Below, piece by piece: positions 20,878-38,432 of a stretch of 64,000 bases of DNA. The first letter of the stretch is position 1; every line of letters begins with the position of its first letter. This DNA is from Trypanosoma brucei. Its lineage: Eukaryota. The notes beneath the pieces are model-generated. The model did no database searches and was not told where the DNA came from. It saw only the letters and a program-made list of their open reading frames with translations. The position numbers were made by a program, and so were the translations under genes. The DNA lies in assembly GCA_000002445.1 (NCBI GenBank), contig CM000208.1:2272001-2336000 (forward strand), given 5' to 3'.

Positions 20878-22353
20878 ATGATATGCCGCACATCTTTTCT
20901 GCGTAAACCCAAGGTAGTTGTTGTTGGCACGGGATGGGCGGGCTGCTACTTTGTGAGAGACACAAAACCACAATTAGCAGAACTCCACGTTTTGTCCACA
21001 CGTAACCATCACGTACTGACACCCCTTCTCCCGCAAACAACCACCGGTACGCTGGAGTTCCGCTCTATATGTGAGCCCATCACTCGCATTCAACCGGCAC
21101 TCGCACACCTTCCGAACCGTTTCTCACGTTGCTTCGTGTATGACATCAACTTCGAACAAAAGCGGGTTGATTGCATTAGCGTAGACAACACCAGCGTCGG
21201 GCCACACGCCTTAGTTAACACATTTGATGTTCAGTACGACAAACTAGTGTTGGCGCATGGTGCACAGCCAAACACGTTTAATGTTCCCGGCGCTGTGGAG
21301 AGGGCGTGTTTCCTTCGGGAGGTAAATGAAGCACGTACCATCCGCAAACGACTTGTGCAGAATATCATGACGGCGAATTTGCCCGTAACAAGTGTCGAGG
21401 AGAAGAAACGCCTTCTGCACACCGTAGTTGTGGGAGGTGGGCCCACGGGCGTTGAATTCTCCGCAGATTTGGCCGAGTTCCTGCGCGACGACGTGAAGAA
21501 CATCAACCCCGAGCTCGTTCAATTCTGCAAAGTGACAGTACTTGAGGCCGGAGAGGTTTTCAGTACATTTGATTTACGCGTGAGGGAATGGGGCAAGCGG
21601 CGGTTAGATGCCCTCGGCGTGCGAATCGTGAAGGGTAATGTTGTGGCTGTGCAAGAGAAGGAGGTGATCACAAAGAGTGGTGAAGTGTTCTCTACCGGCT
21701 TGGTGGTGTGGAGCACAGGTGTCGGACCCTCACCACTAACAAAAGAATTAAAGGTGGACCGAACGCGACAGGGGCGTATTTCCGTCGATGAGCATTTACG
21801 GGTACTGCGCGACGGCGTCCCAATTCCCGATGTGTATGCAATTGGGGACTGTGCAACCAATGAAAGCAACCCGCTACCTACTTTAGCTGCTGTCGCTTCT
21901 CGTCAAGGCGTGTATCTGGCAAAAAAAATCAACGCGGAATTAGCTGGTAAGCCATTCGCCACGCCGTTCAAATATGAGAGCCTCGGAAGCATGGTGAGTC
22001 TTGGTACTTCCAGCGCTGTTGTGGAATTAAATGGGCCACGCAAACTTGATTTTGTTGGGCTTAAGGCACTCTTCTTCTGGCGTAGTGCATACCTCAGCAT
22101 TGTGGGTTCGTGGCGTAATAGGCTTTATGTCATTGTCAACTGGCTTGGAAGCGCAATTTTTGGCCGGGATTTGACACTCATTAACGACTACAATGACGAG
22201 CGGACGTGGCTCTCTCTGGCGTCAGAGGGGGCGGCGCGCGAGAAAGTGAGCAGAATGAACAAAGTTAAAACCGATGGCGACGGCAGTAATGGAAATGAAA
22301 CAACAGCCCGTTCAAAGGTGGACTTACCCGCGACAAAGAAACAGAACGAGTAG
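20878..22353 (+). CDS. NDH2: type II (alternative, rotenone-insensitive) NADH dehydrogenase
   Basis: Two dinucleotide-binding folds are present: KPKVVVVGTGWAGC and TVVVGGGPTGVEF. The 491-aa length matches my recollection of TbNDH2. Confidence 0.8.
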   Translation: MICRTSFLRKPKVVVVGTGWAGCYFVRDTKPQLAELHVLSTRNHHVLTPLLPQTTTGTLEFRSICEPITRIQPALAHLPNRFSRCFVYDINFEQKRVDCISVDNTSVGPHALVNTFDVQYDKLVLAHGAQPNTFNVPGAVERACFLREVNEARTIRKRLVQNIMTANLPVTSVEEKKRLLHTVVVGGGPTGVEFSADLAEFLRDDVKNINPELVQFCKVTVLEAGEVFSTFDLRVREWGKRRLDALGVRIVKGNVVAVQEKEVITKSGEVFSTGLVVWSTGVGPSPLTKELKVDRTRQGRISVDEHLRVLRDGVPIPDVYAIGDCATNESNPLPTLAAVASRQGVYLAKKINAELAGKPFATPFKYESLGSMVSLGTSSAVVELNGPRKLDFVGLKALFFWRSAYLSIVGSWRNRLYVIVNWLGSAIFGRDLTLINDYNDERTWLSLASEGAAREKVSRMNKVKTDGDGSNGNETTARSKVDLPATKKQNE

Positions 22354-22442
22354 GTGAAGTTTGTGTACCAAGCAACACAATTGACCTCCCTTCGATTCTC
22401 ACACCCACGTGGCCGCTGAACATACAATTAAGGACGTGTAAA

Positions 22443-22473
<31 letters not shown>

Positions 22474-25400
22474 TTTGTATATATGTTCTTAATTATGATG
22501 ATTTATTGATGTAACATCCGCGATAATTTTTTTTTGTTCGACTCTGTTTATTTCCGATTTTTTTTTCTTTTCTGCTCCCCGTTTTTTTTTTCCTGTGTAC
22601 TCGTTGTTTTGTTTTGTTTTTTTACCTCCAGAGGTTGATGGCCGCTGGCTTTAACGTGATACCCCCCCCTCCCCCTTCAACCCGCCGCGTACGCGTGGAT
22701 ATGCACCTAAACGTACAATTGAAGATGACACAAACACGTGCGTTTGCAATTTTGTGAATGAATGCGGTGAATGTTATTGTTTTTTTTTTGTATATTTGTA
22801 AGCGTGTGTAAGTGGGTGGGAAGGAGGAAGGTGGAAAAAAGTGTTTTTGGGGTGGGAGATGGAACACCTCCTATGTTACGGGATGTGAATATATAAATAA
22901 ATAAATAAATAAATAACGTTTTTAATTTATGCGAATGGAAGAACGAAGTGTGGTTTCATTCGCATGTGCGTGGGGGGAAAAGGAAGAAAAAAAAAAGAGA
23001 AGCGGGTGGGGGTTGGGGGAAATAAAATAAAATAAAAAGGGTAGGGAAGAGGTATTGTTACTTGGTTTCTGATAAAGGCGGAGAGGAAAGGGAACAAGTC
23101 AAACACATACAAAACAAAAGAATCATATGTTTGTGAAAAGTTGAGGAAAGTGACGGTCAGGCATTGGTTGATGAGTAAAGTCGACGTGTATGACACATGC
23201 GCACTCTCTCCTCATTTCACAAAATGAAAAAATATATATATACATTCTTTAAGGGGGTTTTCCTGAACCTTTTTGCCTCCTCTAAACACGCGCGGAAGAA
23301 GGAAGATTCAAACTCGAATAACTCAAGTGTGAAGAGAAAACAATAATAATTAAAGCATCTGGAGTGTGGGGGGGGGGAAGGAGGAAAACAAAGGAGAGGT
23401 GGAAGTCGCGGCATACTTCAGCACAAATGACTCTTTGAAACTTTATTTAGCTGTCGTTTATGATTTATTTTGTTTTTCTCTTTTACCGTTCATTATACTG
23501 GCGGTCGACTGAAATTCTAACCCAATAAATGAATACGCCACGCGACGAGAGAAATAACACTGAAAGAAGAGGGGAAACAAATGTGGCAACATGAAGGAGT
23601 CGAAGGAGACAAAATGACCAGCGTTTAATCAACCGTCACGACAAACTTGGCGCATCCGGTAGGTTTTCAACCTTTCGTCCTTTGCTGCTGCTGCTGTTGT
23701 TGTTGTTGTTGAGGGGATCCAAAAGGTCGTTGCAGTTCAGTGGTGGTAACTTCGTGTTGGATGGGTTTCACTCATCTTAAAGGAAAGCGGACGAAGGAAT
23801 AATAGCAAAGGGAAAAAAAAACAAAACAAAAGGAGCTAAGCTTATCACATTATTCACTGCTGAGTGGTAGGAGGGAGGTGGGAGAGAAAGAAAAACTGAA
23901 TGAAGAAGGTAATGTTCACATATTATTATTTATTTATTATTATTATTTTTTACAGAGAACTAATCATTGATAATGTATGTGTGTTTGTTTCCACTAGTTT
24001 TCCTGTTGTTGATGTTGTTTTAAGCAAAAAAAAAAAGGAGGCGGGAAACAAGCGCCGATGCCGCTACTGCTTTGGTGGCAGTGGGGTGCGGCAGTAGTGA
24101 TGGCAGCCCATTGATAAGTTACCGTTACGTAAAACATTTATTGCGTCCCTACAGCGCGAAAGTTTCCACACAAAAATAACGTCTCTCCTTCAGAGACCCT
24201 GTTAACTATGTACTCCACTCTGAAACAAAGAGTAATCGGTTCATGTGGCAGCATTCCCTTCTGTATTTCTAACACCACTACTTCATCTCTTTCACCTCTT
24301 TTAATTTCCAACACGCATTCAAGCCATGAGCTGGTACGACCCGAAAGTCTCGTAAGCAATGACAAAAAAAAGGATGAAATGGATGTGAACATGCATATAT
24401 TATTAAACAAATAAATATATGAGAGAGGTTGGTTGCACCAGCCTTTGGCACGTATTGAGCTGAAGAAAGCCTACCGAAGGGGGAGAGGACTGCAGCGAAC
24501 TGAATGGGGTGGGTCCAAACAATGAGAAGTGGTCGCGACGAGGACCCGTCAATTTGTTTGTTTGTTTTGTTTTGTTTTGTTTTTTTTGGTGGAGGGAGGA
24601 AGCGAATACGCCCGTAAAAAAGGTGTAATCTTATGAGCCTGCATTACTTTTTAGCCCGTGCAAAGGGGGTTTGTGGCGGGTTAGTGGACGGAAATGAAAC
24701 TGTTGCAGTGGCTCCTGCGCAGCTCTCCTTTCATCACCCGCTCCATTTAGCGGGTCATAGCTGTGTTTGTCGTAGCAAAGGGGTGATGCATGTTGGGGTA
24801 AACAATACAATATTTTGGTAGCGTTATACGCTGCTTTGTGTGGGGTGGCACAAATGCAAGTGTTGGTCTCTGTTCTCTTTACTAGAATAATATATGAAGG
24901 GAGCAAGTCAGTCAGCAAATTGCTGGGAATCCGTCGCTGCATCTCTGTCAATGGTTCCCACCACCGCCGTACTCCGAGACGGGGACCGCAGCTGATTGAC
25001 ACGTAGCCTTCAAGGAGTCTGTGACGGTTTTACTTGATGGGTGGAAGCCCTTTCCACTGAGGAGACTGCTGAGAATGTGAAATGCCCATTGGTGAGAAGT
25101 AATAGCGAGGAACCCACCGAGCCTCACAGTATCTGGGAAAGAAAATAACAGAAATAATTATGGTAAATGAAAACCGGGGAAGCTACCCGCCTTCGTCCCT
25201 TCCACAAACATATTAATAGCACATCGACTCATTCGTAAGAGATATTTTAATGCTGCTGGGCCAATGTTGGTGAAGTTAGAAGTGGTTTCCTTATCTTGGT
25301 GGCAGACGGGAAGAGGAATATTAGGGACATCCCGTCCCAGTCTTTTTCCACACTATTACCTTCTAAAATTGTGTTTGAACCTCCACAAAACCAAGAAGCT

Positions 25401-26550
25401 AACATCGTAATGGGGCATGCCACACGGTGGTGAGAGGAATTGTGTGTGGAAGGAGGCGGAGTTGGCCACGCCAAGGGGAAGGAAAGGGGGGAAGATTATA
25501 AGAGGCAAATAAAACATTACTTAAAAGTGACAGTCAATATCGAAACATGCAGAAAACGTTGTTAAGGGATTGTGTGTCCACAAGGTCATCCAATTGATCA
25601 ATCGTTGGGTAGCTCAAGGAGTTATTATGCTGATTTGGTTGAATACGAACCCCTCGAAAGGCTCAAACACTTCAGTTGGTTGAGAGGTTGCGCGCACAAA
25701 TCACCGTTCCAACAGGACTGCAGAAAGATGCATCAAGTGGAAAATAAAACAAAGAAGACTTAAACGGTGAGAAAGGCTGGCAAATGTGCCACTGCACGCT
25801 ACTCAATCTTGACTAACGGTACTTCCAAATTAAATGTATATCATGGAACGGGAGTCATTATATTTAGCAGGAAAGGCGATGTAACTGAATTCTACAAGGG
25901 TTTTAGTGGGTTGGCTTGTAGTTATCGTGAACAAAGGTGACGCGATGGAAATGAATTTCAAGGGGCTATTGAAAACGATGCGACACGAAGTAAATGTGGC
26001 CATGCTAAATATTTTCATATCACTTCCCCCTCGCCGCCGTAAAGGTAGAATTTTTTGCATCATGTGGAAATCCACCCTTAAAGTCACCAACCGTCAGGTG
26101 TTCGTCTTCATGCAGCACAGTTTTTCTTTATTTTTTTTTATATTTTTGTCTCGCTGCAACGGAGGGGATCACAGAAGTGAATATGTTGGAGTGCATCGCC
26201 CCAAGAATTTGGCAGCAAAACAGTGGTAGCACTTCAAATTTGGTTTTTTTGACTATATTCACGACTGGAATAATAACACTGGTAATATAAAAATACGGCA
26301 ACGAATAATCGGACGAAATTTTTTTTCGAAGTACCACGTAAACTGTACTTTGTGTGTGCCATCAAAACAGAAACAAATCGTTATTTAAAAAAAAATAAAA
26401 ATACTTTCGGATACCCAGTGACATGTCTATTATTTTTACTATTTTGTTTTATTTACCCTCTTATTTATTTGTGGTTTTGAAAAAAAAGAAATACTTTGTG
26501 CATAATCATACAGACACAGTACAGTTTAGAGGTTGGGTTGCTAAGATAAT

Positions 26551-26745
26551 ATGAAAAAAGGCAACCGTCGCGGCCGCTACCGAAAGAGACGAAGCTCGAG
26601 ATCGCCTTTATTTTGGGTTGCGTTGGCTGCATTGGTTTTGTTGACTTTGTCGACAGGGTTGAATGTATGGCTTGCTGTTGAGTACGCATCCAAGAAAAAG
26701 GTGGAAACCAATTTGGAGCTGGCCGAGAAGGCATGCGGATTATAG
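26551..26745 (+). CDS. small ORF (64 aa) with a basic N-terminus and one TM segment; speculative
   Basis: An ATG-initiated ORF, MKKGNRRGRYRKRRSSRSPLFWVALAALVLLTLSTGLNVW..., is the only support, and a chance ORF is possible. Confidence 0.15.
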   Translation: MKKGNRRGRYRKRRSSRSPLFWVALAALVLLTLSTGLNVWLAVEYASKKKVETNLELAEKACGL

Positions 26746-27096
26746 CGTTGCCATGCTAGGCAGGTACCAACCTTGTTCTCCCTGTGGTGATGCACATTTA
26801 TAATGGACTTTTTTTTTTAGTTGTTGTTGTTACATTGTCGGTACATGCGGAAGAAGGATTGTTAGTGAATTTCTTTGTGTGTTTATTTCTCACAGGCTGT
26901 TGCGGCAAAAGTATTAAATTCCTTCTATTGTGTGAACCTACAGGACAAAGGAGGAACAGGGATGGTTTGCTTTTAAAACGATGCCACCATTTTTCTTCTA
27001 TGTTGTGCACATATGCGTTGTTGAATAAAATGAAGTAAAGAGCCCGGCCGAGTGGAGTGGCGCGGTGTGGGAATACATAAAAATAATAATAAGAAC

Positions 27097-27849
27097 ATGA
27101 GCACCTTCGCGGTACTAAATGGTGTCATAATATTAGCGGTATTCGTTGTAACCGCTGCTTGCTTAGATGATCAAAAGCCTATAAGGGAGGGAGGGAAAGC
27201 GCTGAGTGGAGAGGCTGCAAAACATCTCTGCCGCATCAAACAGATAAGTGAATTGCTCGGAAGCCGTGCAGAGTTTGAGCTAATTAGGGACGGATCCAAG
27301 TTTACCAGCGAGCGACAAGTCCTTCGTAATGTCCAGGATAAAATAACGGAAGGGGTCAAAGGCATAAATGAGTTGTTCGGTAGGCACTGTCGGCGAGTGT
27401 CCTTGGGAATTGAAGGAGGTGGGAGCGACATGCTTTCCAACCCAAATTGCGAAGATAGCGATAAAAAAGAGGGAACGGGGGAAGCCACTGACCAAGGCAG
27501 TGGGACGCTGTCTGAAGAGGGTATTATCCAGTGCGAACACGGTAATTTTCTGCGTGATTTCCTAATTCGGGGTGCCCTCGAGGCATACAGAAGTCAAATG
27601 GAGCAGTGGGAAAAGAAAAAACCGACAGAAGGAAACAAAACGAGTACGGAGGTTAAAGGGGATGAATCGTCAAAAAAACACGAGGACCAATGCCAGCAGA
27701 TGGGATACAGCGTTCATGGGGCCTGCACCGTATCAGAGCAAAAATGGAGGCAACATCTGGAAGAGGCTGTGAAGCTCATGGAAGGCATAATTGTAGTGAA
27801 AAAGGAAGACGTTTGTGGGGTATCAAAAGAAGGGGAGACGCAAAAATAA
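27097..27849 (+). CDS. hypothetical secreted protein (about 250 aa, cleavable signal peptide, 8 Cys, highly charged)
   Basis: MSTFAVLNGVIILAVFVVTAACLDDQ looks like a signal peptide. A poly-Y tract (about 26976-26998) followed by AG lies upstream. It is the only sizeable ATG ORF in an 8.7-kb gene-poor stretch. No family assigned. Confidence 0.4.
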   Translation: MSTFAVLNGVIILAVFVVTAACLDDQKPIREGGKALSGEAAKHLCRIKQISELLGSRAEFELIRDGSKFTSERQVLRNVQDKITEGVKGINELFGRHCRRVSLGIEGGGSDMLSNPNCEDSDKKEGTGEATDQGSGTLSEEGIIQCEHGNFLRDFLIRGALEAYRSQMEQWEKKKPTEGNKTSTEVKGDESSKKHEDQCQQMGYSVHGACTVSEQKWRQHLEEAVKLMEGIIVVKKEDVCGVSKEGETQK

Positions 27850-30800
27850 ATGCGGGTGACAGTGGAAGGCAATGGGGAAGTGGGGTGTAGGGAATGCCTT
27901 TTGTTTTCATTTCTTTCTTTGGGGTCCGTTGGTATCGGTAGCTGCAGGCATATAGTTGCTTGAAAGTGTGCGAGGGTAACTGCGGACGTATATGTAAATA
28001 TGCACAAATTTGTGCTTTTTCTTATTCCGGGTATTTAGGTGTGAATTATGTGTTCCCTGGAGGTAGAGTGTCATCCATATGCGTGCCCTTTGGTAGGACA
28101 CGATCTAAGATAAGGTGTATTGCGTTGGTATTCGTGATTTTTGAAGTGAGTTTCCACCGGAAAGTGTGCGTTTGTACTTAACTATTATGTCCCCCTTCTC
28201 CTTTGTTAAGGTAAGGGGGTTGAATGAACTCTGAAGCGTAAGTGTGCAGAAGTTGGCCGGAGCTCATCGGCCGTTAGGGTGCATTGACGTTTAGAAGATA
28301 AGAGGAATGAGAGCAGCGATTAAATCTTGTGCATCAACAAAAGTCAGATATCATGTGTGAGAGGGCGTGATGCAGGGAGGCAACACTAAGTTTCCGCAAA
28401 GTAATATCGGGGGCAATTCTGTAGTGTTGGTGCAGACTCCGCATTGAATCGAGAATCGGCAAATTGGGGATAGCGGTTCGGTTACCTCCCGTGGTTAGGT
28501 TAGGTGAGGAAAAGCGAAGAGGGGAAATGCACTGAATTGGGGGGCGGGAGCTGGTGACGCCTCAACGATCTTAATGCATAGCGTGACCCCTGTGTACCAA
28601 GCCGTGACGTAAGAGGACGTCATGCATTCGCAAAAGAACGAAAGCAGTTATGGCGTGTGGTGGGGGAAACGCGTACGGGTTTGAACGTGATGCCAGAGTT
28701 TTGGGTCAATACAAGGGGAACACACCAACGAGGGCAACAAGAACTGCTGCAACACGTGGTGAAGCGCAAGACAAGTACCACACCTTCCTTTTCACAGATG
28801 GGTGTGTGGATTGTAGCCCTCTCCCTGCAAGAAAGTAAGGTGCACCACACGAATTACCGATGTTGGTCGAGTTGACGCTTTTCCTCCCCGCCAGTTGAAA
28901 CGGGGGAGAGCAGGGTAGCCCGGGGGGCATTGGATCCCTCCAAATGATGGAGATAGCCTCGCTTTGTGTAGGGCTGAAATCTGAAGGCAAGCACAAATAC
29001 GCTTAGCATGTAAGTGGATCCGCACTCACGAGTGCCTGGGAATGGCATAACCGGATGACGCACAGGCAATCGATGTGAGGAGCAAGGAGGGGAGATGTTG
29101 CCGCCAACGAAGATTACCGGTCTTGAATACACAAGGGTCGTGAATGATAGGGTGCAAACGAAAGGATTGGGAGAGAGAAGATTAGTTGTGCTTCGTTCCC
29201 GGGGGGGAAAAGCAGTCAAGGAATAGGGTATAATTGAATGTAGGAAACCTGCTTCCTGTCGTGAAAGGGGAAATCAATGACCGCAGGAAATTATCCTATC
29301 CGCAGTAAATCGTATTGGTGCATGTTAACAGTTCCAAGGAAAGAAGTGAGGAGGACCTGGTTTTGCCTCACAAGAGCACTTTTTGGAGGGAGCTACACCA
29401 CGCAAAACGACAATTTTGAGCAGTTTTGGGGGGTAAGGAGACTTGATTTGGGGAGGCGGAGGAGAGGAGTCTAATGTTCATTTAGCAGCGGTGGGCCGGT
29501 GAAGAACGGAATTGTGTATGAACGGACCGCAAGTGGTAAAGTTTCCAGAAAGCGATGGAAGTAAGTGCTAATGGTCGGGACGGCCCTCGGAAGCAGCACC
29601 AGGAGCAAAAGGAAGGGGGAAAAGATGCCGAAATATTTATTGTTACATTGAAAATGGTGCACTTTATGTCGTACATTTCTGTTGTGAACAAAACCGTAAG
29701 AATAAACAAACATAACTTTATCCTGATCCCAACCGAACGAAAGAGTAAGGGAAAGGGAGATGTGTTTAAGATCAACTTCTTTTTCCATCGGTTGCTAAAT
29801 GCGTCGCCAGAGGTTTTGTTCATAAATCCCGTCTTTTGAGCATCGATGACGCCGTCGGAAGACGGCTTTTATGAAGTACCGCCTCCTCGTAGGCGACACT
29901 TGTCTTCTCCCATTCATTGCTGGTAGTTAAAATATTCATACTTGCCTAAAAGTTCTGCATCGTATGCACAATCTTAACACCATCCAACATCATACATTTG
30001 GGCGTATTTGCGCGTATCTTCACTTATATATTCCAGCAGCTCCTCTTGCCGTGACCCCTTCCTCCGAATCGTGTCTTCGTGCCGGCAATAAGTAGTATTG
30101 CGTTGGCTAAAAGCATCGCATCTGTGGTCAAATATTTAAAATGTGTGTAGTACATTGGAGGTGTACTGTGTGTTTTTCCCTTCGGACATGCAACCTGGAT
30201 TCAAAAATGCAGAGAAAACGTCGTTCGGTATTATATTCACGCACATTGGCAACTAATTCGTTTATTTTCGTTGCTGTAGGGTAACAAATGTCGCCAGGGG
30301 TCTCCGAAGCAAGGTGGTGAAGTGGACAAGGGTTCACCGGTTCCGTCCACAATTTTCTGGATAATGCGAGTGTTAATGAAAGGACGGAAGGGGACACAGT
30401 TAAAAATGACGACACCCAAGTAAAAAGTAACAGCGGTCATATCCCGCGAGTTTGTGACGCAGTTGCGGCGGCCAAGCTTTTCTCCGCGTAGTGTAGGGCG
30501 CCTACCGCTGGGATACTCGATTGTATCCGTGCCTACGTTGGTTTTGATAGGGTGCCGTGAACATGTGCCGACATAGACTTGGATTTACAAAAATATGCAG
30601 CGTGTTGGTGTTTGCGAGGGTACTGCAACACTGGTGCTTGATGGGGTTAGGTGTTGTTTTTTTTTTTTTGCGCAACCAGACAGAAAAAAAGAGGTCGTAG
30701 AATATGAACGGAGATTCGAGTGCGCCAAGAGTACTCAATTAATCTGGCACCATGCAGGGGAAGATCACGCCAACGACGCTTTATGCGGCTGGAAAATTTT

Positions 30801-31110
30801 TTCTACGTCTCAGATGGAAGTTGTGGCAAAACGGGGAAGTAAAAGACGGGGGATTGTAAGAGGTGGATGAAAATGGGCAAAAAGAAAACTCGCTAAGCAA
30901 TTCGCGCACAGCTGTAAGCCACGTGAGGGATGCATGACCTGGGAGGGTTACATTTAAATCTTCGAGGATAAATAGCCCGTATGGGCGGTAGAAGAAAGTA
31001 GGGATATACTGACATCTAAAAGCAGGACTACGACTGTTAGCGTCACCAACCTCCGGGACGCTATGTATGTGAGGGAGATTGATCGGTAGTGGAGAGTGTA
31101 CGGGTTTGTT

Positions 31111-31440
31111 ATGAAGCGAAAAATTATGAGCCTTGACTACGAAACTCGGTATTTTCATTATCCTTATGGAAAGGTGATCAAAAGGGGTGCCATACTACAT
31201 TTTGCGGGGTCGAGTAACGTGTGGAAGGAGACAATACCCAGGTACCTCAGCGAGATGAGTTGGTTCAAAGCTCTAAAAAATTCTTTCACAGAACGAGAGG
31301 CTTACAGGCGGCTGCTAGAAACAACTTCCGTTGAAATACACTCTGCAAGGGGTGCCTTTAGGTATGTAAAGCTCGGTACTGTGTGCCCCATCTCTAACGT
31401 TTCAAACCCAAATTGGTTATCTGGGGAGTTGAGAAAGTAA
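31111..31440 (+). pseudogene. truncated leading copy of the glycosyltransferase-like array gene; only the last about 105 codons are present
   Basis: From about 31127 to 31440 the sequence is identical to the 3' end of the full copies (KIMSLDYETRYFHYPYGKVIKRG...NPNWLSGELRK*). The identical downstream spacer follows. The sequence upstream of 31127 is unique, so this is the array boundary. Confidence 0.65.
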
Positions 31441-31536
31441 TGCATACGGTCAATCTGCATTGAAGATTACACCCGTAATCCGCGGCACATCGCATCGCAC
31501 TCTCTTATCCCTTACATACTCATTGCAGAAACTGAC

Positions 31537-31555
31537 GTTTTATTTTTGTTTTCAG
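31537..31555 (+). promoter_or_regulatory. poly-pyrimidine tract plus AG, a putative trans-splice acceptor 3 nt upstream of the array-gene ATG; repeated identically at 32828-32846 and 34119-34137
   Basis: gttttatttttgttttcag directly precedes gaaATG in copies 1-3. Copy 4 has gttttatttcatttttag before aaagATG. Confidence 0.5.
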
Positions 31556-31558
31556 GAA

Positions 31559-32731
31559 ATGTTGAGGAGGATCAAGGGTATTTCAACTCGTAAAAAGGGA
31601 GGGAGATTATATTTAATAGTGATTGCGCTGCTGATAGTGGTCGGGGTTATGGCGACAATGGATATAAGAAGTAGTCATACGGAAACCGGTCACGGGTTGA
31701 GAAAAGAAAATTTCCACAGTAGTTATGCACCAAGGATTAGTTATGTTGTGGTGCAAAACAGACCCTCCCCAGGGTGGTGTAGAATGCTCTTAAGCTCTAT
31801 ACTCACCAATGTGTCGGTGCTTACGTTGGGTGTGGAGGGTAAGTACGGGCATGTAAGAAGATGGACCTGGATATATAATTATGTATGGCGGGGAGAAGCG
31901 CGTGAGAGCGATGTGATTGTGATATTCGATGGGGGAGACACTTTTTTCACAGAAACACATTTAAGAGAAGATGCCATGAAGTATTTTCTGGCAACAACGC
32001 CTAGCACGCCTGAAAAGTTCAATGAAACAGAAATCATACAGGGAGCTATGACACCTCCAATGCTCTTCACGGCAGAGGTGTATTGCGCTATGCCACAGAT
32101 TGATATAATGGTAAAGCATCCAAGGAATACACCGCCTGGGAAGTGCAGGAGGTTCTACGAGCGAGCATTTGAGGCGTCCACCCGAACAGGGACAAGGGCG
32201 ATTCTGAGGGCAAATGAATCTGGAAGGTCGTATCTCAATGGCGGAGGAGTAATTGCAAGAGTATGGGCTCTGAGAGAGGCTCTGGAGGCATTCTTCCGCT
32301 TAAAAAAGCAAAGTTTTTTTTGGGGCTGTGATCAAACTATGTGGGCATTTGTGTTTTTGTGGAGTGTAACTAGACCAAGTAACGTGAAACCGAAGTTGTT
32401 TCTGAGAAGGGGAATTATGAGCCTTGACTACGAAACTCGGTATTTTCATTATCCTTATGGAAAGGTGATCAAAAGGGGTGCCATACTACATTTTGCGGGG
32501 TCGAGTAACGTGTGGAAGGAGACAATACCCAGGTACCTCAGCGAGATGAGTTGGTTCAAAGCTCTAAAAAATTCTTTCACAGAACGAGAGGCTTACAGGC
32601 GGCTGCTAGAAACAACTTCCGTTGAAATACACTCTGCAAGGGGTGCCTTTAGGTATGTAAAGCTCGGTACTGTGTGCCCCATCTCTAACGTTTCAAACCC
32701 AAATTGGTTATCTGGGGAGTTGAGAAAGTAA
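31559..32731 (+). CDS. type-II membrane protein with a PLOD/LH3-N-terminal-like GT-A glycosyltransferase domain (array copy 1, 390 aa)
   Basis: Short basic cytosolic tail (MLRRIKGISTRKKGGR) and a TM segment (LYLIVIALLIVVGVMATM) precede a luminal domain. Several blocks align with the lysyl-hydroxylase N-terminal GT domain: YVVVQNRP...LTLG (VITVAT...RTLG), DVIVIFDGGDTFF (MIIMFVDSYDVI), MLFTAEVYC (LLFSAESFC), YLNGGGVIARV (FLNSGGFIGFA), CDQTMWAFVFL (DDQLFYTRLYL). ORF-track start is TTG at 31460; the first ATG is at 31559. Confidence 0.8.
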   Translation: MLRRIKGISTRKKGGRLYLIVIALLIVVGVMATMDIRSSHTETGHGLRKENFHSSYAPRISYVVVQNRPSPGWCRMLLSSILTNVSVLTLGVEGKYGHVRRWTWIYNYVWRGEARESDVIVIFDGGDTFFTETHLREDAMKYFLATTPSTPEKFNETEIIQGAMTPPMLFTAEVYCAMPQIDIMVKHPRNTPPGKCRRFYERAFEASTRTGTRAILRANESGRSYLNGGGVIARVWALREALEAFFRLKKQSFFWGCDQTMWAFVFLWSVTRPSNVKPKLFLRRGIMSLDYETRYFHYPYGKVIKRGAILHFAGSSNVWKETIPRYLSEMSWFKALKNSFTEREAYRRLLETTSVEIHSARGAFRYVKLGTVCPISNVSNPNWLSGELRK

Positions 32732-32849
32732 TGCATACGGTCAATCTGCATTGAAGATTACACCCGTAATCCGCGGCACATCGCATCGCACTCTCTTATC
32801 CCTTACATACTCATTGCAGAAACTGACGTTTTATTTTTGTTTTCAGGAA

Positions 32850-34022
32850 ATGTTGAGGAGGATCAAGGGTATTTCAACTCGTAAAAAGGGAGGGAGATTA
32901 TATTTAATAGTGATTGCGCTGCTGATAGTGGTCGGGGTTATGGCGACAATGGATATAAGAAGTAGTCATACGGAAACCGGTCACGGGTTGAGAAAAGAAA
33001 ATTTCCACAGTAGTTATGCACCAAGGATTAGTTATGTTGTGGTGCAAAACAGACCCTCCCCAGGGTGGTGTAGAATGCTCTTAAGCTCTATACTCACCAA
33101 TGTGTCGGTGGTTACGTTGGGTATGGGAGGATGGTATGGTAACGTAAGAAGATGGACCTGGATATATAATTATGTATGGCGGGGAGAAGCGCGTGAGAGC
33201 GATGTGATTGTGATATTCGATGGGGGAGACACTTTTTTCACAGAAACACATTTAAGAGAAGATGCCATGAAGTATTTTCTGGCAACAACGCCTAGCACGC
33301 CTGAAAAGTTCAATGAAACAGAAATCATACAGGGAGCTATGACACCTCCAATGCTCTTCACGGCAGAGGTGTATTGCGCTATGCCAGATATTGATATAAT
33401 GGTAAAGCATCCAAGGAATACACCGCCTGGGAAGTGCAGGAGGTTCTACGAGCGAGCATTTGAGGCGTCCACCCGAACAGGGACAAGGGCGATTCTGAGG
33501 ATGAATGAATCCGGCAGGTCGTATCTCAATGGCGGAGGAGTAATTGCAAGAGTGTGGGCTCTGAGAGAGGCTCTGGAGGCATTCTTCCGCTTAAAAAAGC
33601 AGTGGTTTATATGGCGTTGTGATCAAACTATGTGGGCATTTGTGTTTTTGTGGAGTGTAACTAGACCAAGTAACGTGAAACCGAAGTTGTTTCTGAGAAG
33701 GGGAATTATGAGCCTTGACTACGAAACTCGGTATTTTCATTATCCTTATGGAAAGGTGATCAAAAGGGGTGCCATACTACATTTTGCGGGGTCGAGTAAC
33801 GTGTGGAAGGAGACAATACCCAGGTACCTCAGCGAGATGAGTTGGTTCAAAGCTCTAAAAAATTCTTTCACAGAACGAGAGGCTTACAGGCGGCTGCTAG
33901 AAACAACTTCCGTTGAAATACACTCTGCAAGGGGTGCCTTTAGGTATGTAAAGCTCGGTACTGTGTGCCCCATCTCTAACGTTTCAAACCCAAATTGGTT
34001 ATCTGGGGAGTTGAGAAAGTAA
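32850..34022 (+). CDS. glycosyltransferase-like array copy 2 (390 aa), about 97% identical to copy 1 at the protein level
   Basis: Same architecture as copy 1. Differences from copy 1 are confined to short patches (LTLGVEGKYGH vs VTLGMGGWYGN, PQIDIM vs PDIDIM, RANESG vs RMNESG, KKQSFFWGCDQ vs KKQWFIWRCDQ). Confidence 0.8.
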   Translation: MLRRIKGISTRKKGGRLYLIVIALLIVVGVMATMDIRSSHTETGHGLRKENFHSSYAPRISYVVVQNRPSPGWCRMLLSSILTNVSVVTLGMGGWYGNVRRWTWIYNYVWRGEARESDVIVIFDGGDTFFTETHLREDAMKYFLATTPSTPEKFNETEIIQGAMTPPMLFTAEVYCAMPDIDIMVKHPRNTPPGKCRRFYERAFEASTRTGTRAILRMNESGRSYLNGGGVIARVWALREALEAFFRLKKQWFIWRCDQTMWAFVFLWSVTRPSNVKPKLFLRRGIMSLDYETRYFHYPYGKVIKRGAILHFAGSSNVWKETIPRYLSEMSWFKALKNSFTEREAYRRLLETTSVEIHSARGAFRYVKLGTVCPISNVSNPNWLSGELRK

Positions 34023-34140
34023 TGCATACGGTCAATCTGCATTGAAGATTACACCCGTAATCCGCGGCACATCGCATCGCACTCTCTTATCCCTTACATA
34101 CTCATTGCAGAAACTGACGTTTTATTTTTGTTTTCAGGAA

Positions 34141-35319
34141 ATGGCGAAGGGAGGGAAAAGGGTAGTTGCTCGTAAAAAGGGAGGGAGATTATATTTAATA
34201 GTGATTGCGCTGCTGATAGTGGTCGGGGTTATGGCGACAATGGATATAAGAAGTAGCCATACGGAAACCGGTCACGGGTTGAGAAAAGAAAATTTCCACA
34301 GTAATTATGCACCAAGGGTTAGTTATGTTGTGGTGCAAACGAGACGCTCCCCAGGGTGGTGTAGAATGCTCTTAAGCTCTATACTCACCAACGTAAGCGT
34401 CACAACAGTTGGAATGGGCGCAGTGTACATTCATGCGTGGAGATGGACCTGGATATATAATTATATGCTACGGGAGAGGATGCATGAAGACGATGTGATT
34501 GTGATATTCGATGGGGGAGACACTTTTTTCACAGAAACACATTTAAGAGAAGATGCCATGAAGTATTTTCTGGCAACAACGCCTAGCACGCCTGAAAAGT
34601 TCAATGAAACAGAAATCTTACAGGGAGCTATGACACCTCCAATGCTCTTCACGGCAGAAAAAGGCTGCTACGCGCCGCAAATGTATATCATGACGGGTGT
34701 CGATCCCAGTAAAATACCTCAACGGGAAAGATGTTTAAATGTGTATGAAGAGGCATTTGAGGCGTCTACTCTGGCAGGGACGCAGGCTATTTTGCGGAAG
34801 CACGAATCTGGAAGGTGGCATCTCAATGGCGGAGGAGTAATTGCAAGAGTGTGGGCTCTGAGAGAGGCCCTAGATGTTTTCTTCGCGCTCAAAAGGCAGA
34901 GTTACAAATGGTGGTGTGATCAAAGTATGTGGTCATTGATTTTAGCGTGGAGTGTCAGCAGACCAAAGCACGTGAAACCGGTGTTGCTTCTGAGAAGGGG
35001 AATTATGAGCCTTGACTACGAAACTCGGTATTTTCATTATCCTCATACAACGCCGATTAGGACAGGAGTGATCCTACATTTTCCAATGCCGATCGTTTTG
35101 TGGAAAAACAAAATGGCAAAATACGTTGGTGAGACGACATGGTTTAGGGCTTTGCGAGATTCCGAAGGAAGACAGAAGACAGTGGCAGATTACTTAAAGA
35201 CCGTTTATGTGGATATTCGCTTCGTCTTTGGGTTCAAAAAGTGGAGGAAGTTTAGCAGCGTGTGCAGCATAAGCGATGTTGTGAACCCAAACTGGCTAAG
35301 TGGTGTGTTGAGAAAGTAA
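34141..35319 (+). CDS. glycosyltransferase-like array copy 3 (392 aa), a mosaic with an identical 5' end and a diverged middle and 3' end
   Basis: The spacer and the 5'UTR-proximal sequence are identical to copies 1 and 2 (ATG at 34141). The catalytic core is conserved (VIVIFDGGDTFF, LFTAE, LNGGGVIARVWALREAL, WWCDQSMW) and the C-terminal 80 aa are diverged. Confidence 0.75.
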   Translation: MAKGGKRVVARKKGGRLYLIVIALLIVVGVMATMDIRSSHTETGHGLRKENFHSNYAPRVSYVVVQTRRSPGWCRMLLSSILTNVSVTTVGMGAVYIHAWRWTWIYNYMLRERMHEDDVIVIFDGGDTFFTETHLREDAMKYFLATTPSTPEKFNETEILQGAMTPPMLFTAEKGCYAPQMYIMTGVDPSKIPQRERCLNVYEEAFEASTLAGTQAILRKHESGRWHLNGGGVIARVWALREALDVFFALKRQSYKWWCDQSMWSLILAWSVSRPKHVKPVLLLRRGIMSLDYETRYFHYPHTTPIRTGVILHFPMPIVLWKNKMAKYVGETTWFRALRDSEGRQKTVADYLKTVYVDIRFVFGFKKWRKFSSVCSISDVVNPNWLSGVLRK

Positions 35320-35443
35320 CACCAGCGCTTGACCTGTACCATAATATCATGCCCCCTATACGCTGCGTGTCGGCACGCCATTCACCAGGATGTATGAATA
35401 CACTGTGTGTGGAAATCCGTGTTTTATTTCATTTTTAGAAAAG

Positions 35444-36625
35444 ATGAAAGGAACTAAGAAATTTTATGGTAAAAGAAGGAAGAGAACGTGTGTAATAGGT
35501 GCGGCACTTCTGCTTATCTTTTTACTTTGTCGCATGCTGTTTATCCGGACGGAAGAAGTGGAAGACACCACGTTTGAGGAGGGTTGTTGGGAGCGTGAGA
35601 TGCGCAGCGAAGGAGTGGGAGATGTAAAGGTGCGTTACGTCGTGATACAGACGAAGCCCTCCCCAGGTTGGTGTAGAATGCTTGTAAGCTCTCTCGTTGT
35701 TGGTATTGATGTAATTACAATAGGACTCGATGGCGTGTACCATCACACCTCGAGGCCACATTGGTTGCTGAACTACATAGAAAGTGCGGGGTTAAGTGAT
35801 GACGATGTGATTGTGACATTTGATGGTGCGGACACAGTATTTGTGAACAAGCATAACCTCCAGTGCGCTATTAGCAAGTTCATATCAACGACACCGAGCA
35901 AACCAGAAAATTTCGATGAGGAAAAAATACTGAAAGGCGTCCAAAAGTCTCCACTCCTGTTTACTGCTGAAAGGGGGTGTTTTGCCTCTCAACTAAGCGT
36001 TTTGTTTTCAATAAGAGGCAGAAAACACGAAAAGAGGTGTGAGCGGTTCTATAGGGGGGAGATTTCAAAGGCCAAAGCAACCGGCGCGGAACGGGTGATG
36101 CGGATGCCAAAGAGTGGGCGGGCGTATCTTAATGCTGGTGGGGTGATCGGGAGGGTGTGGGCATTTAAGGAAGCAATAGGAGGATTTTCAAAACTTAGAG
36201 AAAAGAGTGACAGATGGTGGTGTGATCAGACAATTTGGACCATTCTCTTTGCCTGGAGCGTCAATCAACAGGACACTGGGGGTAAAGCAGTGCACTTGAG
36301 AAAGGGTCTGATTTCTCTAGACTACGATGCGAGGTATTTTCTCATTCCTTCGTACACTTCCCCAATTCGAAGCATGATATTGCATTTTTCCGGGCTTATT
36401 AGAGACTGGAAGTGGTGGTTTCCAGGTGTTGTGAGGAGGTTGGTATGGATACAGAGAATGAGAGATGATGTGTATCAGAGAGACAGTAGGAGTTTGCTAA
36501 CTAAGACCAGCTTAACGATCTACGGCGCTAAAGGAGAAAAATATATTCGTAAGTTTGCCGATGTTTGCAACGTTGATGAGGCCGTGGACTACACGTGGCT
36601 GTCGACGGTCCGAAGTAAGCATTAG
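35444..36625 (+). CDS. glycosyltransferase-like array copy 4 (about 393 aa), the most diverged paralogue
   Basis: The start is chosen by analogy with the other copies: the ATG right after poly-Y/AG gives MKGTKKFYGKRRKRT plus a TM segment (CVIGAALLLIFLLC). The ORF track begins at an upstream ATG at 35390. Family blocks are conserved: YVVIQTKPSPGWCRMLVSS, VIVTFDGADTVF, LLFTAERGC, YLNAGGVIGRVWAF, WWCDQTIW. Confidence 0.7.
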   Translation: MKGTKKFYGKRRKRTCVIGAALLLIFLLCRMLFIRTEEVEDTTFEEGCWEREMRSEGVGDVKVRYVVIQTKPSPGWCRMLVSSLVVGIDVITIGLDGVYHHTSRPHWLLNYIESAGLSDDDVIVTFDGADTVFVNKHNLQCAISKFISTTPSKPENFDEEKILKGVQKSPLLFTAERGCFASQLSVLFSIRGRKHEKRCERFYRGEISKAKATGAERVMRMPKSGRAYLNAGGVIGRVWAFKEAIGGFSKLREKSDRWWCDQTIWTILFAWSVNQQDTGGKAVHLRKGLISLDYDARYFLIPSYTSPIRSMILHFSGLIRDWKWWFPGVVRRLVWIQRMRDDVYQRDSRSLLTKTSLTIYGAKGEKYIRKFADVCNVDEAVDYTWLSTVRSKH

Positions 36626-38432
36626 ATACTACAGGTCAGCGTGAGACCGGCTGTTTCTACGGATGTGTGTACACAGGATTTTATACGTTGTGGGTTGCCG
36701 TCCACTCCGCGGCAAATCACCTTAGGTGCCACTGTTGACATCAAAAGGTTTTTCGAAGACAGTCTTTAAAAATTTATGTAAATTCGCTCCCTGCAATCGC
36801 GAGTTGGCGTTGTTTTGTAAACACGTGGATCCGCGTAAACGAAAAAAAAACAGCGATCCCAGTGTCGTTGGGATCTTCTACTGATGCCTGCAACGATGTG
36901 GCCACCGAAAAATAAAGGTAACCGTTTTTTTTTTTTAGCACCGTACTCGTTCGCTATTTACGGATGAAAATGAGGGGGAGTAGTGGGTATGTAGATTTCG
37001 AATGCCGTATCGTGGTGTTATTGGTGACTTTCTGTAAAACAAGCAGTTCAAAGGGGGAGTGTGATTATTATCGTCAAACTTTTAGATGAGAGCTTGCATT
37101 CAAGGCGCGTGTTGTGGCAGAAAACACGGGCTGCTCCCTGAGGTAGTGCAAGCCGTGTGCTCGTATAACGCCATCCGGTGCAGTGGTGGTTGGTGTGGTG
37201 GTGTTCCGCGACACCGACATGTCGGGAGGTGTCTGTGAGATTGAGGGGTTTATGTGGGAATATGATATCGTAGCAATGTTTTATGGCGCAGACACGTCTT
37301 TAGCGCAGGCCGAGTTTGTGGAGGAAGAGACACACCTTTGCGAATAGCTCACCAAAAATTAAAATGACAAACACATGGCGAGAGTCATTTTGCTTGGAAC
37401 AATGTTCCCCTCAATAATTTTCCGATCGAGAGGGGATGTTACCTCCTACGGATGTATGTCATGCTAGTGGTGTAGAACAAAAGTTCACAGTGGTACGAAA
37501 GTGTGTGAATATACGAGACTGGATGAGTGGGAAGGAGCTTATGGAGGGCTCGTCACGGTTGGGCTGCAGAATGCATGCCCAAACGGCATCGGTAAAAGTG
37601 GAAGAGTTTAAACGCTCAGAGAACCCTTTAAATCACTTTGTCAACGCCAGGATGGAGAACTTCAACTGATGGTGCGGCTACTATATAAGCGCTGGCGTTT
37701 CCGTACAATGTGACAGAGTACGTATTCGGGGAGGCGTTTACTCCCTCTCTACGGGGACCCATGTCCCTTAACTACAACTTCCAATGGTTTGGCAACGCCA
37801 CACTCAAAACAAACCTCACTTCCACTATTGCCCATTCGGGGTGAGATAATTGGGAGGGTGAGCTTGCCGATGACTGGGAGACTGTCATTGTGGTACCGAC
37901 AACTTGAACCACCGGAGAGGTGACAGTGAACGAAGGAGCATTCACTTTCGGAGCCTTTAGTGGCACAACGTAAGGAGAGAAAGTGCCTTCGAACAACCTC
38001 GGTGACGTGCGTCGAATCAATAGGACGGTGAAATATAAATGGCTAATGAGACCATTTAAGTGAAGTTAGCTGACGCCAGCACCATGTGTTTGCATTTATT
38101 TCACCGTGGCGTGCCTCGTATTTCTCCGCAATGAAGTTGGGTAGACATCTTCACCATTGTTGAGGACGTGGTATGCATCTATTGAATAGTGGATCTTGTC
38201 CCTAAAAACTGCCGAAACGTGGACGAAGAGCTCTCATAAAAAGGATTTCGATTTTACGCTGCTGTGCGTGAGTCAGGATAAAGAGGTGGCGTGATTTTAA
38301 TTGGTTCCATTGGAAATGCCTGTGATTTAGAGGAGTTCTTAGTGAAATCTCGAGCGCGCACAATAGTGATAAAACGAAAAAGAGGGATGTGAGGGGGAGG
38401 GCGTGCCGGTCATATAAAGGATATTCCAAACT

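What the first reader, a model, noticed from the sequence alone, without database searches (positions are those of the whole stretch)
27097..27849. Isolated ORF for a secreted, Cys-containing, highly charged 250-aa protein in the gene-poor stretch
It has a clean signal peptide (MSTFAVLNGVIILAVFVVTAAC), 8 cysteines, no TM segment and an acidic/Lys-rich middle. A poly-Y tract followed by AG lies upstream. It sits in the same island as the glycosyltransferase array and could be a secreted or surface-associated partner, or a decaying member of a lineage-specific surface family (VSG/ESAG-related folds cannot be excluded by eye).
Basis: partly seen in the sequence, partly recalled or inferred. Interest (0 to 1): 0.5.

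Follow-up and report, generated by a model that had tools for sequence, protein, structure and literature searches.

The report
Anchorless ISG-family bloodstream protein of T. brucei
The ORF is a real, already catalogued Trypanosoma brucei gene (Tb927.10.9450) for a small secreted-type relative of the invariant surface glycoproteins that lacks any membrane anchor, yet is abundantly made in bloodstream parasites and recovered with surface-labelled proteins.

Summary
Window 27097-27849 (+) is a 250-codon ORF with an N-terminal signal peptide, 8 Cys, no other hydrophobic segment and a highly charged body. It is the longest ORF in a 9.1-kb gene-poor stretch (P about 0.002 by simulation).

It is gene Tb927.10.9450 (old ID Tb10.6k15.0940) of T. 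brucei TREU927 chromosome 10. The frame is intact at 99% identity in T. b. gambiense and two T. equiperdum genomes.

It passes the Pfam threshold for the ISG65-75 family (PF11727, E 1.5e-10), and the match runs co-linearly over nearly the whole profile. So it is a compact but complete ISG-type ectodomain that stops before the linker, transmembrane helix and cytoplasmic tail of canonical ISGs. Its only other relative is Tb927.2.1600 (27% identity).

Published data rule out decay:
- mRNA is 5.1-fold higher in bloodstream forms.
- SILAC protein is about 7-fold higher in bloodstream forms.
- In the bloodstream surface proteome it has 13 peptides, 50% coverage and 36-fold enrichment, with signal comparable to ISG65.

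The neighbouring "glycosyltransferase array" is four ESAG3/ESAG3-like genes, co-upregulated in bloodstream forms.

Most likely it is a soluble ISG-fold protein held at the surface or flagellar pocket, probably by a partner. That step is inferred. It is an uncharacterised member of a known family, of modest interest.

The parts
27097..27849 (+). Coding sequence of Tb927.10.9450 (old ID Tb10.6k15.0940; XP_823168.1 / UniProt Q38A30): 250 aa plus TAA stop.
   Evidence: The sequence matches the TREU927 protein exactly. GeneDB gives location Tb927_10_v5:2337653-2338405(+), length 250, 27.549 kDa, which matches 753 nt and the computed 27548.8 Da.
27097..27162 (+). Signal peptide, residues 1-22 (MSTFAVLNGVIILAVFVVTAAC). 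Cleavage is after A21 or C22.
   Evidence: It is the only hydrophobic segment. Published SignalP is 0.967. The paralogue's mature N-terminus aligns at LDDQ, which favours cleavage after C22. This is inferred.
27175..27384 (+). N-terminal part of the ISG-type domain (residues 27-96), including the helix-1 motif L..EAAKHLCRIK.
   Evidence: Scanned alone, it matches PF11727 positions 20-86 at 13.5 bits, and PF11727 is the only family listed. The motif aligns to ISG65 'LTKEGAAALCKMKHLADKV' in the PDB chains.
27403..27513 (+). Gly/Ser/acidic loop, residues 103-139, predicted non-helical.
   Evidence: Both AF2 models show no secondary structure here. Its position corresponds to the disordered head loops of ISG65. 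This is inferred, because the models have low confidence.
27583..27786 (+). C-terminal part of the ISG-type domain (residues 163-230), with the conserved C-x10-C-T-V-S-E-x-x-W-R motif and the last helix.
   Evidence: It matches PF11727 positions 213-269 of 281 at 32.9 bits, E 5e-8. It aligns to ISG65 residues 209-249 of 8ovb_C and is conserved in Tb927.2.1600.
27634..27642 (+). The single N-glycosylation sequon, N180-K-T.
   Evidence: Found by pattern search. Occupancy was not tested.
26990..27035 (+). Proximal poly-pyrimidine tract (26990-26999) and first downstream AG (27034-27035), a candidate trans-splice acceptor giving a 61-nt 5'UTR without upstream ATG.
   Evidence: From. It is invariant in T. 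b. gambiense and T. b. equiperdum. Its use was not verified.
26808..26820 (+). Distal C-T10 tract followed at once by AG, an alternative candidate splice acceptor (276-nt 5'UTR, 6 upstream ATGs).
Evidence: From.

Best explanation
The ORF is the functional gene Tb927.10.9450 of Trypanosoma brucei. It is a compact, anchorless member of the invariant surface glycoprotein (ISG65-75, PF11727) superfamily.

Shown:
- It has a signal peptide followed by one complete ISG-type ectodomain. The domain is predicted helical and carries the conserved helix-1 Cys motif and the C-x10-C-TVSE-W motif before the last helix.
- The protein stops about 20 residues after the domain. It has no linker, transmembrane helix, cytoplasmic tail or GPI signal.
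- mRNA and protein are several-fold higher in bloodstream than in procyclic forms.
- The protein is cell-associated. It is strongly recovered when live bloodstream cells are surface-labelled, at a level like ISG65.

Inferred:
- After signal-peptide cleavage in the ER it travels the secretory pathway to the flagellar pocket and cell surface as a soluble helical bundle.
- It is kept there peripherally. This could be by non-covalent or disulphide binding to a membrane-anchored partner or to the coat. Seven Cys in the mature protein would leave one unpaired, for example C240.
- Like ISG65, which binds complement C3b, it serves to bind a host or parasite ligand at the host-parasite interface.

The gene sits in a T. 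brucei-specific, bloodstream-upregulated island together with four ESAG3-like genes.
For: Identity:
- The sequence matches TREU927 Tb10.6k15.0940 exactly.
- The Tb927.10.9450 record has the same length, mass and 753-nt span.

Family:
- PF11727 scores E 1.5e-10, 41.3 bits, against a cut-off of 25.1.
- The two halves match profile positions 20-86 and 213-269 co-linearly.
- The paralogue Tb927.2.1600 also hits PF11727, at E 6.6e-20.
- A profile of the two proteins finds ISG65 chains 8ovb_C, 7pi6_A and 7zgj_C as the best PDB hits, with co-linear motifs.

No anchor:
- The hydropathy profile shows no C-terminal or internal hydrophobic segment.
- No homologous C-terminal remnant lies downstream.

Expression:
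- The microarray shows 5.1-fold more mRNA in cultured bloodstream forms than in procyclics, with signal 12081 against 13-18k for ISG65.
- The SILAC log2 PCF/BSF ratio is -2.85, similar to ISG75 at -2.81.
- In the surface proteome it has 84 PSMs, 13 peptides, 50.4% coverage and 35.9-fold enrichment. It is present in all four labelled replicates at 0.5-3.2e-6, against 0.9-2.3e-6 for ISG65.

Conservation:
- The 250-aa frame is intact in T. b. gambiense, T. b. equiperdum and T. equiperdum OVI.
Against: - No microscopy or fractionation of this protein exists in the literature I could search, so surface or pocket residence rests on one labelling study. One of the two 'dead cell' controls in that study also gave signal, 9.2e-7.
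- A partner, a ligand and the free cysteine are all inferences.
- Structure prediction failed (pLDDT 42 and 37), so the three-helix bundle is not demonstrated.
- Within-species variation does not show purifying selection. Polymorphism is 0.93% in the ORF, 0.83-1.49% in the flanking intergenic DNA and 0.75% in NDH2. There are 4 synonymous and 4 nonsynonymous changes over four genomes.
- Canonical ISG features (TM helix, ubiquitylatable tail) are absent, so ISG trafficking rules cannot apply.
Confidence: 0.6

Rival explanations
1. It is a freely secreted soluble factor. The anchorless ISG-fold protein is released through the flagellar pocket into the host, for example as a decoy for a host ligand. 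It appears in the 'surface' proteome only because pocket-lumen and endosomal content is labelled too. No membrane partner exists.
For: It has a signal peptide and no anchor of any kind. The labelling reagent reaches the flagellar pocket, and the surface set includes pocket and endosomal proteins. GRESAG9 is a precedent for secreted ESAG-related proteins.
Against: It was quantified in washed whole-cell lysates (SILAC). It was also recovered at ISG65-like intensity from washed, labelled cells in four of four replicates. That much retention is not expected for a freely released protein. The evidence is indirect.
Confidence: 0.2
2. It is an anchor-less relic. An ancestral GPI- or TM-anchored ISG-like gene lost its C-terminus, for example by a nonsense mutation. 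The truncated product is still made but is functionally neutral and drifting.
For: The nearest paralogue, Tb927.2.1600, carries a 64-residue C-terminal extension ending in a hydrophobic, GPI-signal-like tail. After the TAA the frame stays open for 37 codons ending in a moderately hydrophobic stretch, CLLFSFLSLGSVGIGS. ORF polymorphism equals that of the intergenic flanks, and dN/dS (about 0.3 from 8 sites) is not significantly below 1.
Against: The stop codon and frame are identical in four genomes, with no indel in 753 nt. The PF11727 match is complete and ends where the ORF ends. No similarity to the paralogue's tail lies downstream. The post-stop 'hydrophobic' stretch is simply a pyrimidine-rich tract, and an open run of 37 codons is expected about 17% of the time (my estimate). 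The protein is abundant and stage-regulated.
Confidence: 0.12
3. It is a resident of the ER, Golgi or endo-lysosomal lumen, for example acting with the neighbouring ESAG3-like proteins. Its surface-proteome enrichment is an artefact.
For: It is adjacent to ESAG3-like genes and co-upregulated 4-5-fold with them. Tagged ESAG3 did not localise to the surface. Signal appeared in one lysed-cell control.
Against: There is no ER-retrieval-type C-terminus; the protein ends GETQK. It is 35.9-fold enriched over the unlabelled and lysed controls, whereas abundant ER and lysosome markers were depleted by the same procedure. ESAG3 itself was not enriched.
Confidence: 0.08

Closest known systems
ISG65 (T. 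brucei 65-kDa invariant surface glycoprotein; complement C3/C3b receptor; PDB 7pi6, 8ovb, 7zgj)
   Same: Both belong to Pfam family PF11727. They share a signal peptide, the helix-1 'AAxxLCxxK' motif and the 'C-x10-C-T-x-[ST]-E-x-W' motif before the last helix, in the same order. Both show bloodstream-form up-regulation and comparable intensity in the surface-labelled proteome.
   Different: ISG65 is a type I membrane protein of about 436 aa. It has helices of 42-49 residues, long disordered head loops, a 46-residue linker, a TM helix and a cytoplasmic tail. The ORF product is 250 aa with shorter predicted helices and no linker, TM or tail. Sequence similarity is too low for phmmer. C3b binding was not tested.
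Tb927.2.1600 (P0005; 310-aa T. brucei-specific hypothetical protein, labelled ISG in UniProt)
   Same: It is the only detectable paralogue in 1.84 billion representative proteins: 27% identity over residues 16-236, E 7e-4 against the library and E 8e-9 by tblastn. They share the mature N-terminus LDDQxP, five aligned Cys and a PF11727 hit.
   Different: It has a 64-residue C-terminal extension ending in a hydrophobic, GPI-signal-like tail. Its mRNA is roughly constitutive, 1.5-fold. It is absent from the bloodstream surface-proteome tables.
ISG75 / ISG64 and the chromosome-5 'ISG-like' genes (Tb927.5.310, .410-.430, .630; cell-surface phylome Fam49)
   Same: They belong to the same Pfam family and show bloodstream-form up-regulation of similar size at mRNA and protein level.
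   Different: All are listed with one TM domain, and several (for example ISG64 and Tb927.5.410) are assigned to Fam49. Tb927.10.9450 has no phylome family assigned and its only 'TM' is the signal peptide.
ESAG11 (expression-site-associated gene 11; phylome Fam3)
   Same: It is reported to be a highly modified ISG derivative. It is small, has a signal peptide and no TM, and is bloodstream-upregulated. In expression sites it lies near ESAG3, as this ORF lies next to an ESAG3-like array (the expression-site gene order is from my own knowledge).
   Different: The surface-proteome paper counts ESAG11 among ESAGs predicted to carry a signal peptide, GPI site or TM, and localises it to the cell body and flagellum membrane. 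GPI anchoring is from my own knowledge. This protein has no GPI signal. I could not obtain ESAG11 sequences, so direct similarity is untested.
ESAG7 (anchorless subunit of the ESAG6/ESAG7 transferrin receptor)
   Same: It is the working analogy only. It is a secretory protein of a surface-family fold that lacks its own anchor and stays at the pocket by pairing with an anchored relative (established knowledge).
   Different: It belongs to a different fold family (VSG-derived). Its partner is a near-identical paralogue encoded next to it. No such partner is identified here, and the only paralogue is 27% identical and on another chromosome.

Membership tests
ISG65-75 superfamily (Pfam PF11727) | Sequence match to the family profile above the curated gathering score | tested here: met
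   The whole protein scores 41.3 bits, E 1.5e-10, against a cut-off of 25.1. The C-terminal half alone scores 32.9 bits. The N-terminal half scores 13.5 bits at the co-linear profile positions 20-86.
ISG65-75 superfamily (Pfam PF11727) | N-terminal signal peptide (secretory entry) | tested here: met
   Hydropathy peaks at 2.6 over residues 1-23. Published SignalP is 0.967.
ISG65-75 superfamily (Pfam PF11727) | Elongated three-helix-bundle ectodomain | tested here: inconclusive
   AF2 gave long helices at 27-55, 72-102, 140-173 and 214-232, but pLDDT was only 42 and 37. Foldseek against PDB gave no hits. The conserved motifs are co-linear with ISG65 helices 1 and 4.
Canonical ISGs (ISG65/ISG75/ISG64) | Type I topology: linker, single C-terminal TM helix and short cytoplasmic tail used for ubiquitin-dependent sorting | tested here: not met
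   No hydrophobic window above 1.0 exists beyond residue 29, and the protein ends about 20 residues after the domain. No TM or tail remnant is found in any downstream frame.
Canonical ISGs (ISG65/ISG75/ISG64) | Bloodstream-form-enriched expression | tested here: met
   This rests on published data. mRNA is 5.1-fold up in bloodstream forms. The protein log2 PCF/BSF ratio is -2.85.
Canonical ISGs (ISG65/ISG75/ISG64) | Location at the cell surface, flagellar pocket or endosomes | tested here: inconclusive
   It is 35.9-fold enriched in the surface-labelled proteome. It has not been localised by tagging or microscopy in any text I could search.
Canonical ISGs (ISG65/ISG75/ISG64) | N-glycosylation | not testable with these tools
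   One sequon, N180-K-T, is present. Occupancy is unknown.
ESAG11 (Fam3) | C-terminal GPI-addition signal | tested here: not met
   The C-terminus is hydrophilic...KKEDVCGVSKEGETQK. The published PredGPI value of 0.94 (1 minus false-positive rate) is at a level also given to an RNA helicase in the same table.
ESAG11 (Fam3) | Sequence similarity to ESAG11 proteins | not tested
   No ESAG11 sequence could be retrieved. The three homology searches and the representative search returned only the orthologues and Tb927.2.1600.
VSG / VSG-related | Match to VSG N- or C-terminal domain profiles | tested here: not met
   A Pfam scan at E up to 1 lists only PF11727.
   Array members have no Pfam family and no PDB sequence relative. 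They are annotated ESAG3/ESAG3-like.

The most novel reading that the evidence does not exclude
Tb927.10.9450 is the soluble subunit of a so far unrecognised heteromeric receptor of bloodstream T. brucei. An anchorless ISG-fold protein, as abundant as ISG65, would be held on the surface or pocket membrane by pairing with an anchored protein, possibly through its odd cysteine, as ESAG7 pairs with ESAG6. Together they would bind a host serum factor. That would add a new architecture to the ISG family and a new invariant, exposed antigen.
Probability: 0.15. Interest if true: 0.7.

Novelty: new member of a known kind. Interest (0 to 1): 0.33.

Why it matters
Invariant proteins exposed on bloodstream African trypanosomes are few. 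They are sought as diagnostics, vaccine candidates and drug-uptake routes. ISG65 and ISG75 have known roles: a complement C3b receptor and the mediator of suramin uptake.

An uncharacterised ISG-family protein that matches ISG65 in surface-labelled abundance yet has no anchor raises two concrete, testable questions: what holds it on the cell, and what it binds.

For genome annotation the result is ordinary. The gene is already catalogued and automatically labelled as an ISG.

Tried and rejected
Searches and predictions that led nowhere:
- Single-sequence phmmer against PDB gave no hit. Only a two-sequence profile reached ISG65, and weakly, at E 0.02-0.9.
- Three word-indexed homology searches and the full HMMER scan of 1.84 billion representatives returned only the 99%-identical orthologue cluster and one paralogue. 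No deep alignment could therefore be built.
- AlphaFold2 on the single sequence and on the two-sequence alignment gave pLDDT 42 and 37. Foldseek against PDB with the better model gave zero hits. I ran no further search on unusable models.
- Looking for a lost anchor, tblastn of the paralogue and of its C-terminal 75 residues found nothing downstream of the ORF. The in-frame 37-codon extension after the TAA is invariant in the three other genomes examined but derives from a pyrimidine tract. I regard it as chance.
- The selection test has too few sites: 8 polymorphic sites, 4 synonymous and 4 nonsynonymous.
- The bacterial promoter/terminator scan was at shuffle level and is irrelevant for a trypanosome.
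- Rfam found no RNA family in the window.
- The genomic context of Tb927.2.1600 could not be fetched.
- The Shimogawa 2015 surface-biotinylation paper is not held.

Explanations rejected:
- Chance ORF (plus the MS evidence).
- Pseudogene or decaying copy.
- VSG relative.
- Partner of a glycosyltransferase.

Full report
**1. Observation**

The sequence at 27097-27849 (+) is an ATG-to-TAA ORF of 250 codons. The product is 27.55 kDa with pI 5.7.

- It has 8 Cys, at residues 22, 45, 98, 118, 146, 199, 210 and 240.
- It has 29 Glu, 22 Lys and 27 Gly, and one N-X-T sequon (N180).
- Its single hydrophobic segment is at the N-terminus. No 19-residue window beyond residue 29 exceeds a Kyte-Doolittle mean of 1.0.

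It is the only ORF over 125 codons in the 9.1-kb interval between the NDH2 gene (20878-22353) and the tandem array that starts at 31460. Only 2 of 1000 Markov simulations of that interval gave an ORF this long.

Pyrimidine tracts followed by AG lie upstream. The proximal pair (26990-26999, AG at 27034) would give a 61-nt 5'UTR free of upstream ATGs.

**2. Identity**

The protein is identical to T. brucei brucei TREU927 Tb10.6k15.0940 (XP_823168.1, UniProt Q38A30). Its 90% cluster holds three more 250-aa proteins, from T. b. gambiense DAL972 ('T. brucei spp.-specific protein'), T. b. equiperdum and T. equiperdum OVI ('invariant surface glycoprotein, putative').

The current ID is Tb927.10.9450. 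A GeneDB header in the Urbaniak supplement gives Tb927_10_v5:2337653-2338405(+), length 250, 27.549 kDa. That matches the 753-nt span and the mass I computed. NDH2 upstream is Tb927.10.9440 / Tb10.6k15.0960.

**3. Family**

Pfam places the protein in ISG65-75 (PF11727) at E 1.5e-10, 41.3 bits, against a gathering score of 25.1. Scanning the two halves separately shows the match is co-linear across almost the whole 281-position profile:

| Residues | Profile positions | Score |
|---|---|---|
| 27-96 | 20-86 | 13.5 bits |
| 163-230 | 213-269 | 32.9 bits |

So the ORF encodes a compact but complete ISG-type domain, not a fragment.

A HMMER scan of 1.84 billion representative proteins found just one further relative, Tb927.2.1600 (310 aa, 27% identity). 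That protein hits PF11727 at 6.6e-20. The two share the mature N-terminus LDDQxP and the motifs LCRxK, HCR, NC, KPT and C..GYS...CTVSE..WR.

A profile of the two finds ISG65 chains (8ovb_C, 7pi6_A, 7zgj_C) as the top PDB sequences. The helix-1 motif and the pre-helix-4 Cys motif are aligned in order. In ISG65 those elements flank a three-helix bundle: helix 1 at 36-84, helix 2 at 100-144, helix 4 at 259-300. A 46-residue linker and a TM helix follow.

My AF2 models predict long helices in the corresponding places but are of low confidence (pLDDT 42 and 37). Foldseek gave nothing. The fold therefore remains inferred from sequence.

**4. What is missing**

Canonical ISGs are type I membrane proteins. 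This protein ends about 20 residues after the domain with a hydrophilic tail (...KKEDVCGVSKEGETQK).

No frame downstream encodes a TM helix plus Lys-rich tail, and nothing downstream resembles the paralogue's GPI-signal-like C-terminal extension.

The 37 in-frame codons after the TAA end in a mildly hydrophobic stretch and are invariant in the three other genomes examined. They coincide with a pyrimidine-rich tract, and I treat them as chance.

**5. Is it alive?**

- (a) A signal peptide is predicted: SignalP 0.967, signal-anchor 0.031.
- (b) A transcript is detected. In Jensen et al. 2009 (PMC2771046) the gene is 5.1-fold higher in cultured bloodstream than in procyclic forms (q 0.05), with signal 12081 against 13-18k for ISG65. 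It falls in expression cluster 8, with log ratios +0.71, +0.72, +0.29, -1.81 and -2.27; these five values presumably correspond to three bloodstream and two procyclic conditions, though I did not read the column key.
- (b, continued) Protein is detected. Urbaniak et al. 2012 (PMC3344917) quantified it by SILAC at log2 PCF/BSF = -2.85, next to ISG75 at -2.81. Gadelha et al. 2015 (PMC4587319) found it in the surface-labelled proteome of live bloodstream cells with 84 PSMs, 13 peptides, 50.4% coverage and 35.9-fold enrichment. It was present in all four labelled replicates at 4.8e-7 to 3.2e-6, against 8.9e-7 to 2.3e-6 for ISG65.
- (c) The frame is intact in four genomes, with no indel.

Variation is too low to test selection. 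There are 8 polymorphic sites, 4 synonymous and 4 nonsynonymous. ORF polymorphism is 0.93%, against 0.83-1.49% in the flanks and 0.75% in NDH2.

The protein is not mentioned in the main text of any paper in the searchable library under its current ID. It was not among the proteins the Gadelha study tagged. The cell-surface phylome column is blank for it, whereas several ISG-family entries are Fam49.

**6. Context**

The downstream 'glycosyltransferase array' is four tandem ESAG3/ESAG3-like genes, Tb10.6k15.0920-0890, which include Tb927.10.9460 and Tb927.10.9470.

- They have no Pfam domain and no PDB relative.
- They are 4.1-5.4-fold up in bloodstream forms.
- Their copy number varies between genomes.

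A further signal-peptide ORF at 39626-40228 is probably Tb10.6k15.0880 and is also bloodstream-upregulated. The flanking NDH2 gene is instead higher in procyclics.

The ORF thus lies in a T. brucei-specific, bloodstream-upregulated island of secretory-pathway genes inside a housekeeping polycistron. Jackson et al. 2013 report ESAG11 as an ISG derivative. ESAG11 and ESAG3 are near neighbours in expression sites (my own knowledge). An ESAG11-like affinity of this gene is therefore a lead, but I could not test it.

**7. Mechanism**

Shown: secretory entry, an ISG-type domain, no anchor, bloodstream-stage expression, cell association, and accessibility to a surface-labelling reagent.

Inferred: the mature soluble helical protein reaches the flagellar pocket or surface and is held there peripherally. 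The most economical way is binding to an anchored partner or to the coat. If cleavage follows C22, as the paralogue alignment suggests, the mature protein has 7 Cys. One of them, plausibly C240, would be free for an intermolecular disulphide. By analogy with ISG65 and C3b it would bind a host or parasite ligand.

Rivals:
- A freely secreted factor (0.2).
- A truncated, drifting relic that is still expressed (0.12).
- A lumenal resident whose surface enrichment is an artefact (0.08).

**8. Verdict**

This is a real, already catalogued and automatically ISG-labelled gene that has never been studied individually. It is best filed as a divergent, anchorless member of the ISG superfamily. It does not meet the topological definition of canonical ISGs.

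Interest is modest for genome scanning. It is somewhat higher for trypanosome surface biology, because of the protein's abundance and its unexplained retention on the cell.

Noticed in passing
window 31460-36625: There are four tandem copies (period about 1291 nt) of ESAG3/ESAG3-like genes (Tb10.6k15.0920-0890; Tb927.10.9460/9470 among them). They have no Pfam or PDB match, so they are not recognisable glycosyltransferases. All are 4.1-5.4-fold up in bloodstream forms. Copy number differs between genomes: 4 in TREU927, 2 called in T. b. gambiense, 1 in each equiperdum assembly, and two reported missing in T. evansi STIB805.
   Followed up: partly
window 39626-40228: This 200-aa ORF is probably Tb10.6k15.0880 ('hypothetical T. 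brucei specific', 4.4-fold up in bloodstream forms). It has a signal peptide, many Cys (CC-R-C and C-E-C-D clusters) and a C-terminal hydrophobic stretch (KIFLFLLAALLM) that could be a GPI or TM signal. It has no Pfam hit and no similarity to the ISG-like ORF.
   Followed up: partly
window 27850-27963: After the TAA stop the same frame stays open for 37 more codons (MRVTVEGNGEVGCRECLLFSFLSLGSVGIGSCRHIVA*), ending in a mildly hydrophobic stretch. The sequence is identical in the three other genomes examined. It overlaps a pyrimidine-rich tract and is probably chance, but a relic GPI signal is not strictly excluded.
   Followed up: partly
window 20878-40228: Stage regulation switches within one + strand polycistron. 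NDH2 is higher in procyclic forms (2.2-fold). The next six genes (the ISG-like ORF, four ESAG3-like genes and the 200-aa ORF) are all 4-5-fold higher in bloodstream forms. This looks like a co-regulated, lineage-specific island with unusually long intergenic spacers (4.7 kb and 3.6 kb around the ISG-like gene).
   Followed up: no
window 22354-27096: The 4.7-kb spacer upstream of the ORF has most of the indel variation between subspecies: 100 gapped columns, against 0 in the ORF and 3 in the 2.5 kb downstream. It also holds several short AT-rich microsatellites (22451-22484, 22888-22916, 23921-23952, 24553-24588).
   Followed up: no
L002 4277-5263 (T. b. equiperdum locus): In the T. b. equiperdum assembly the NDH2 gene is called as only 328 aa, against 491 aa in TREU927, T. 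b. gambiense and T. equiperdum OVI. This could be a truncation, an assembly error or a gene-calling difference. I did not examine it.
   Followed up: no
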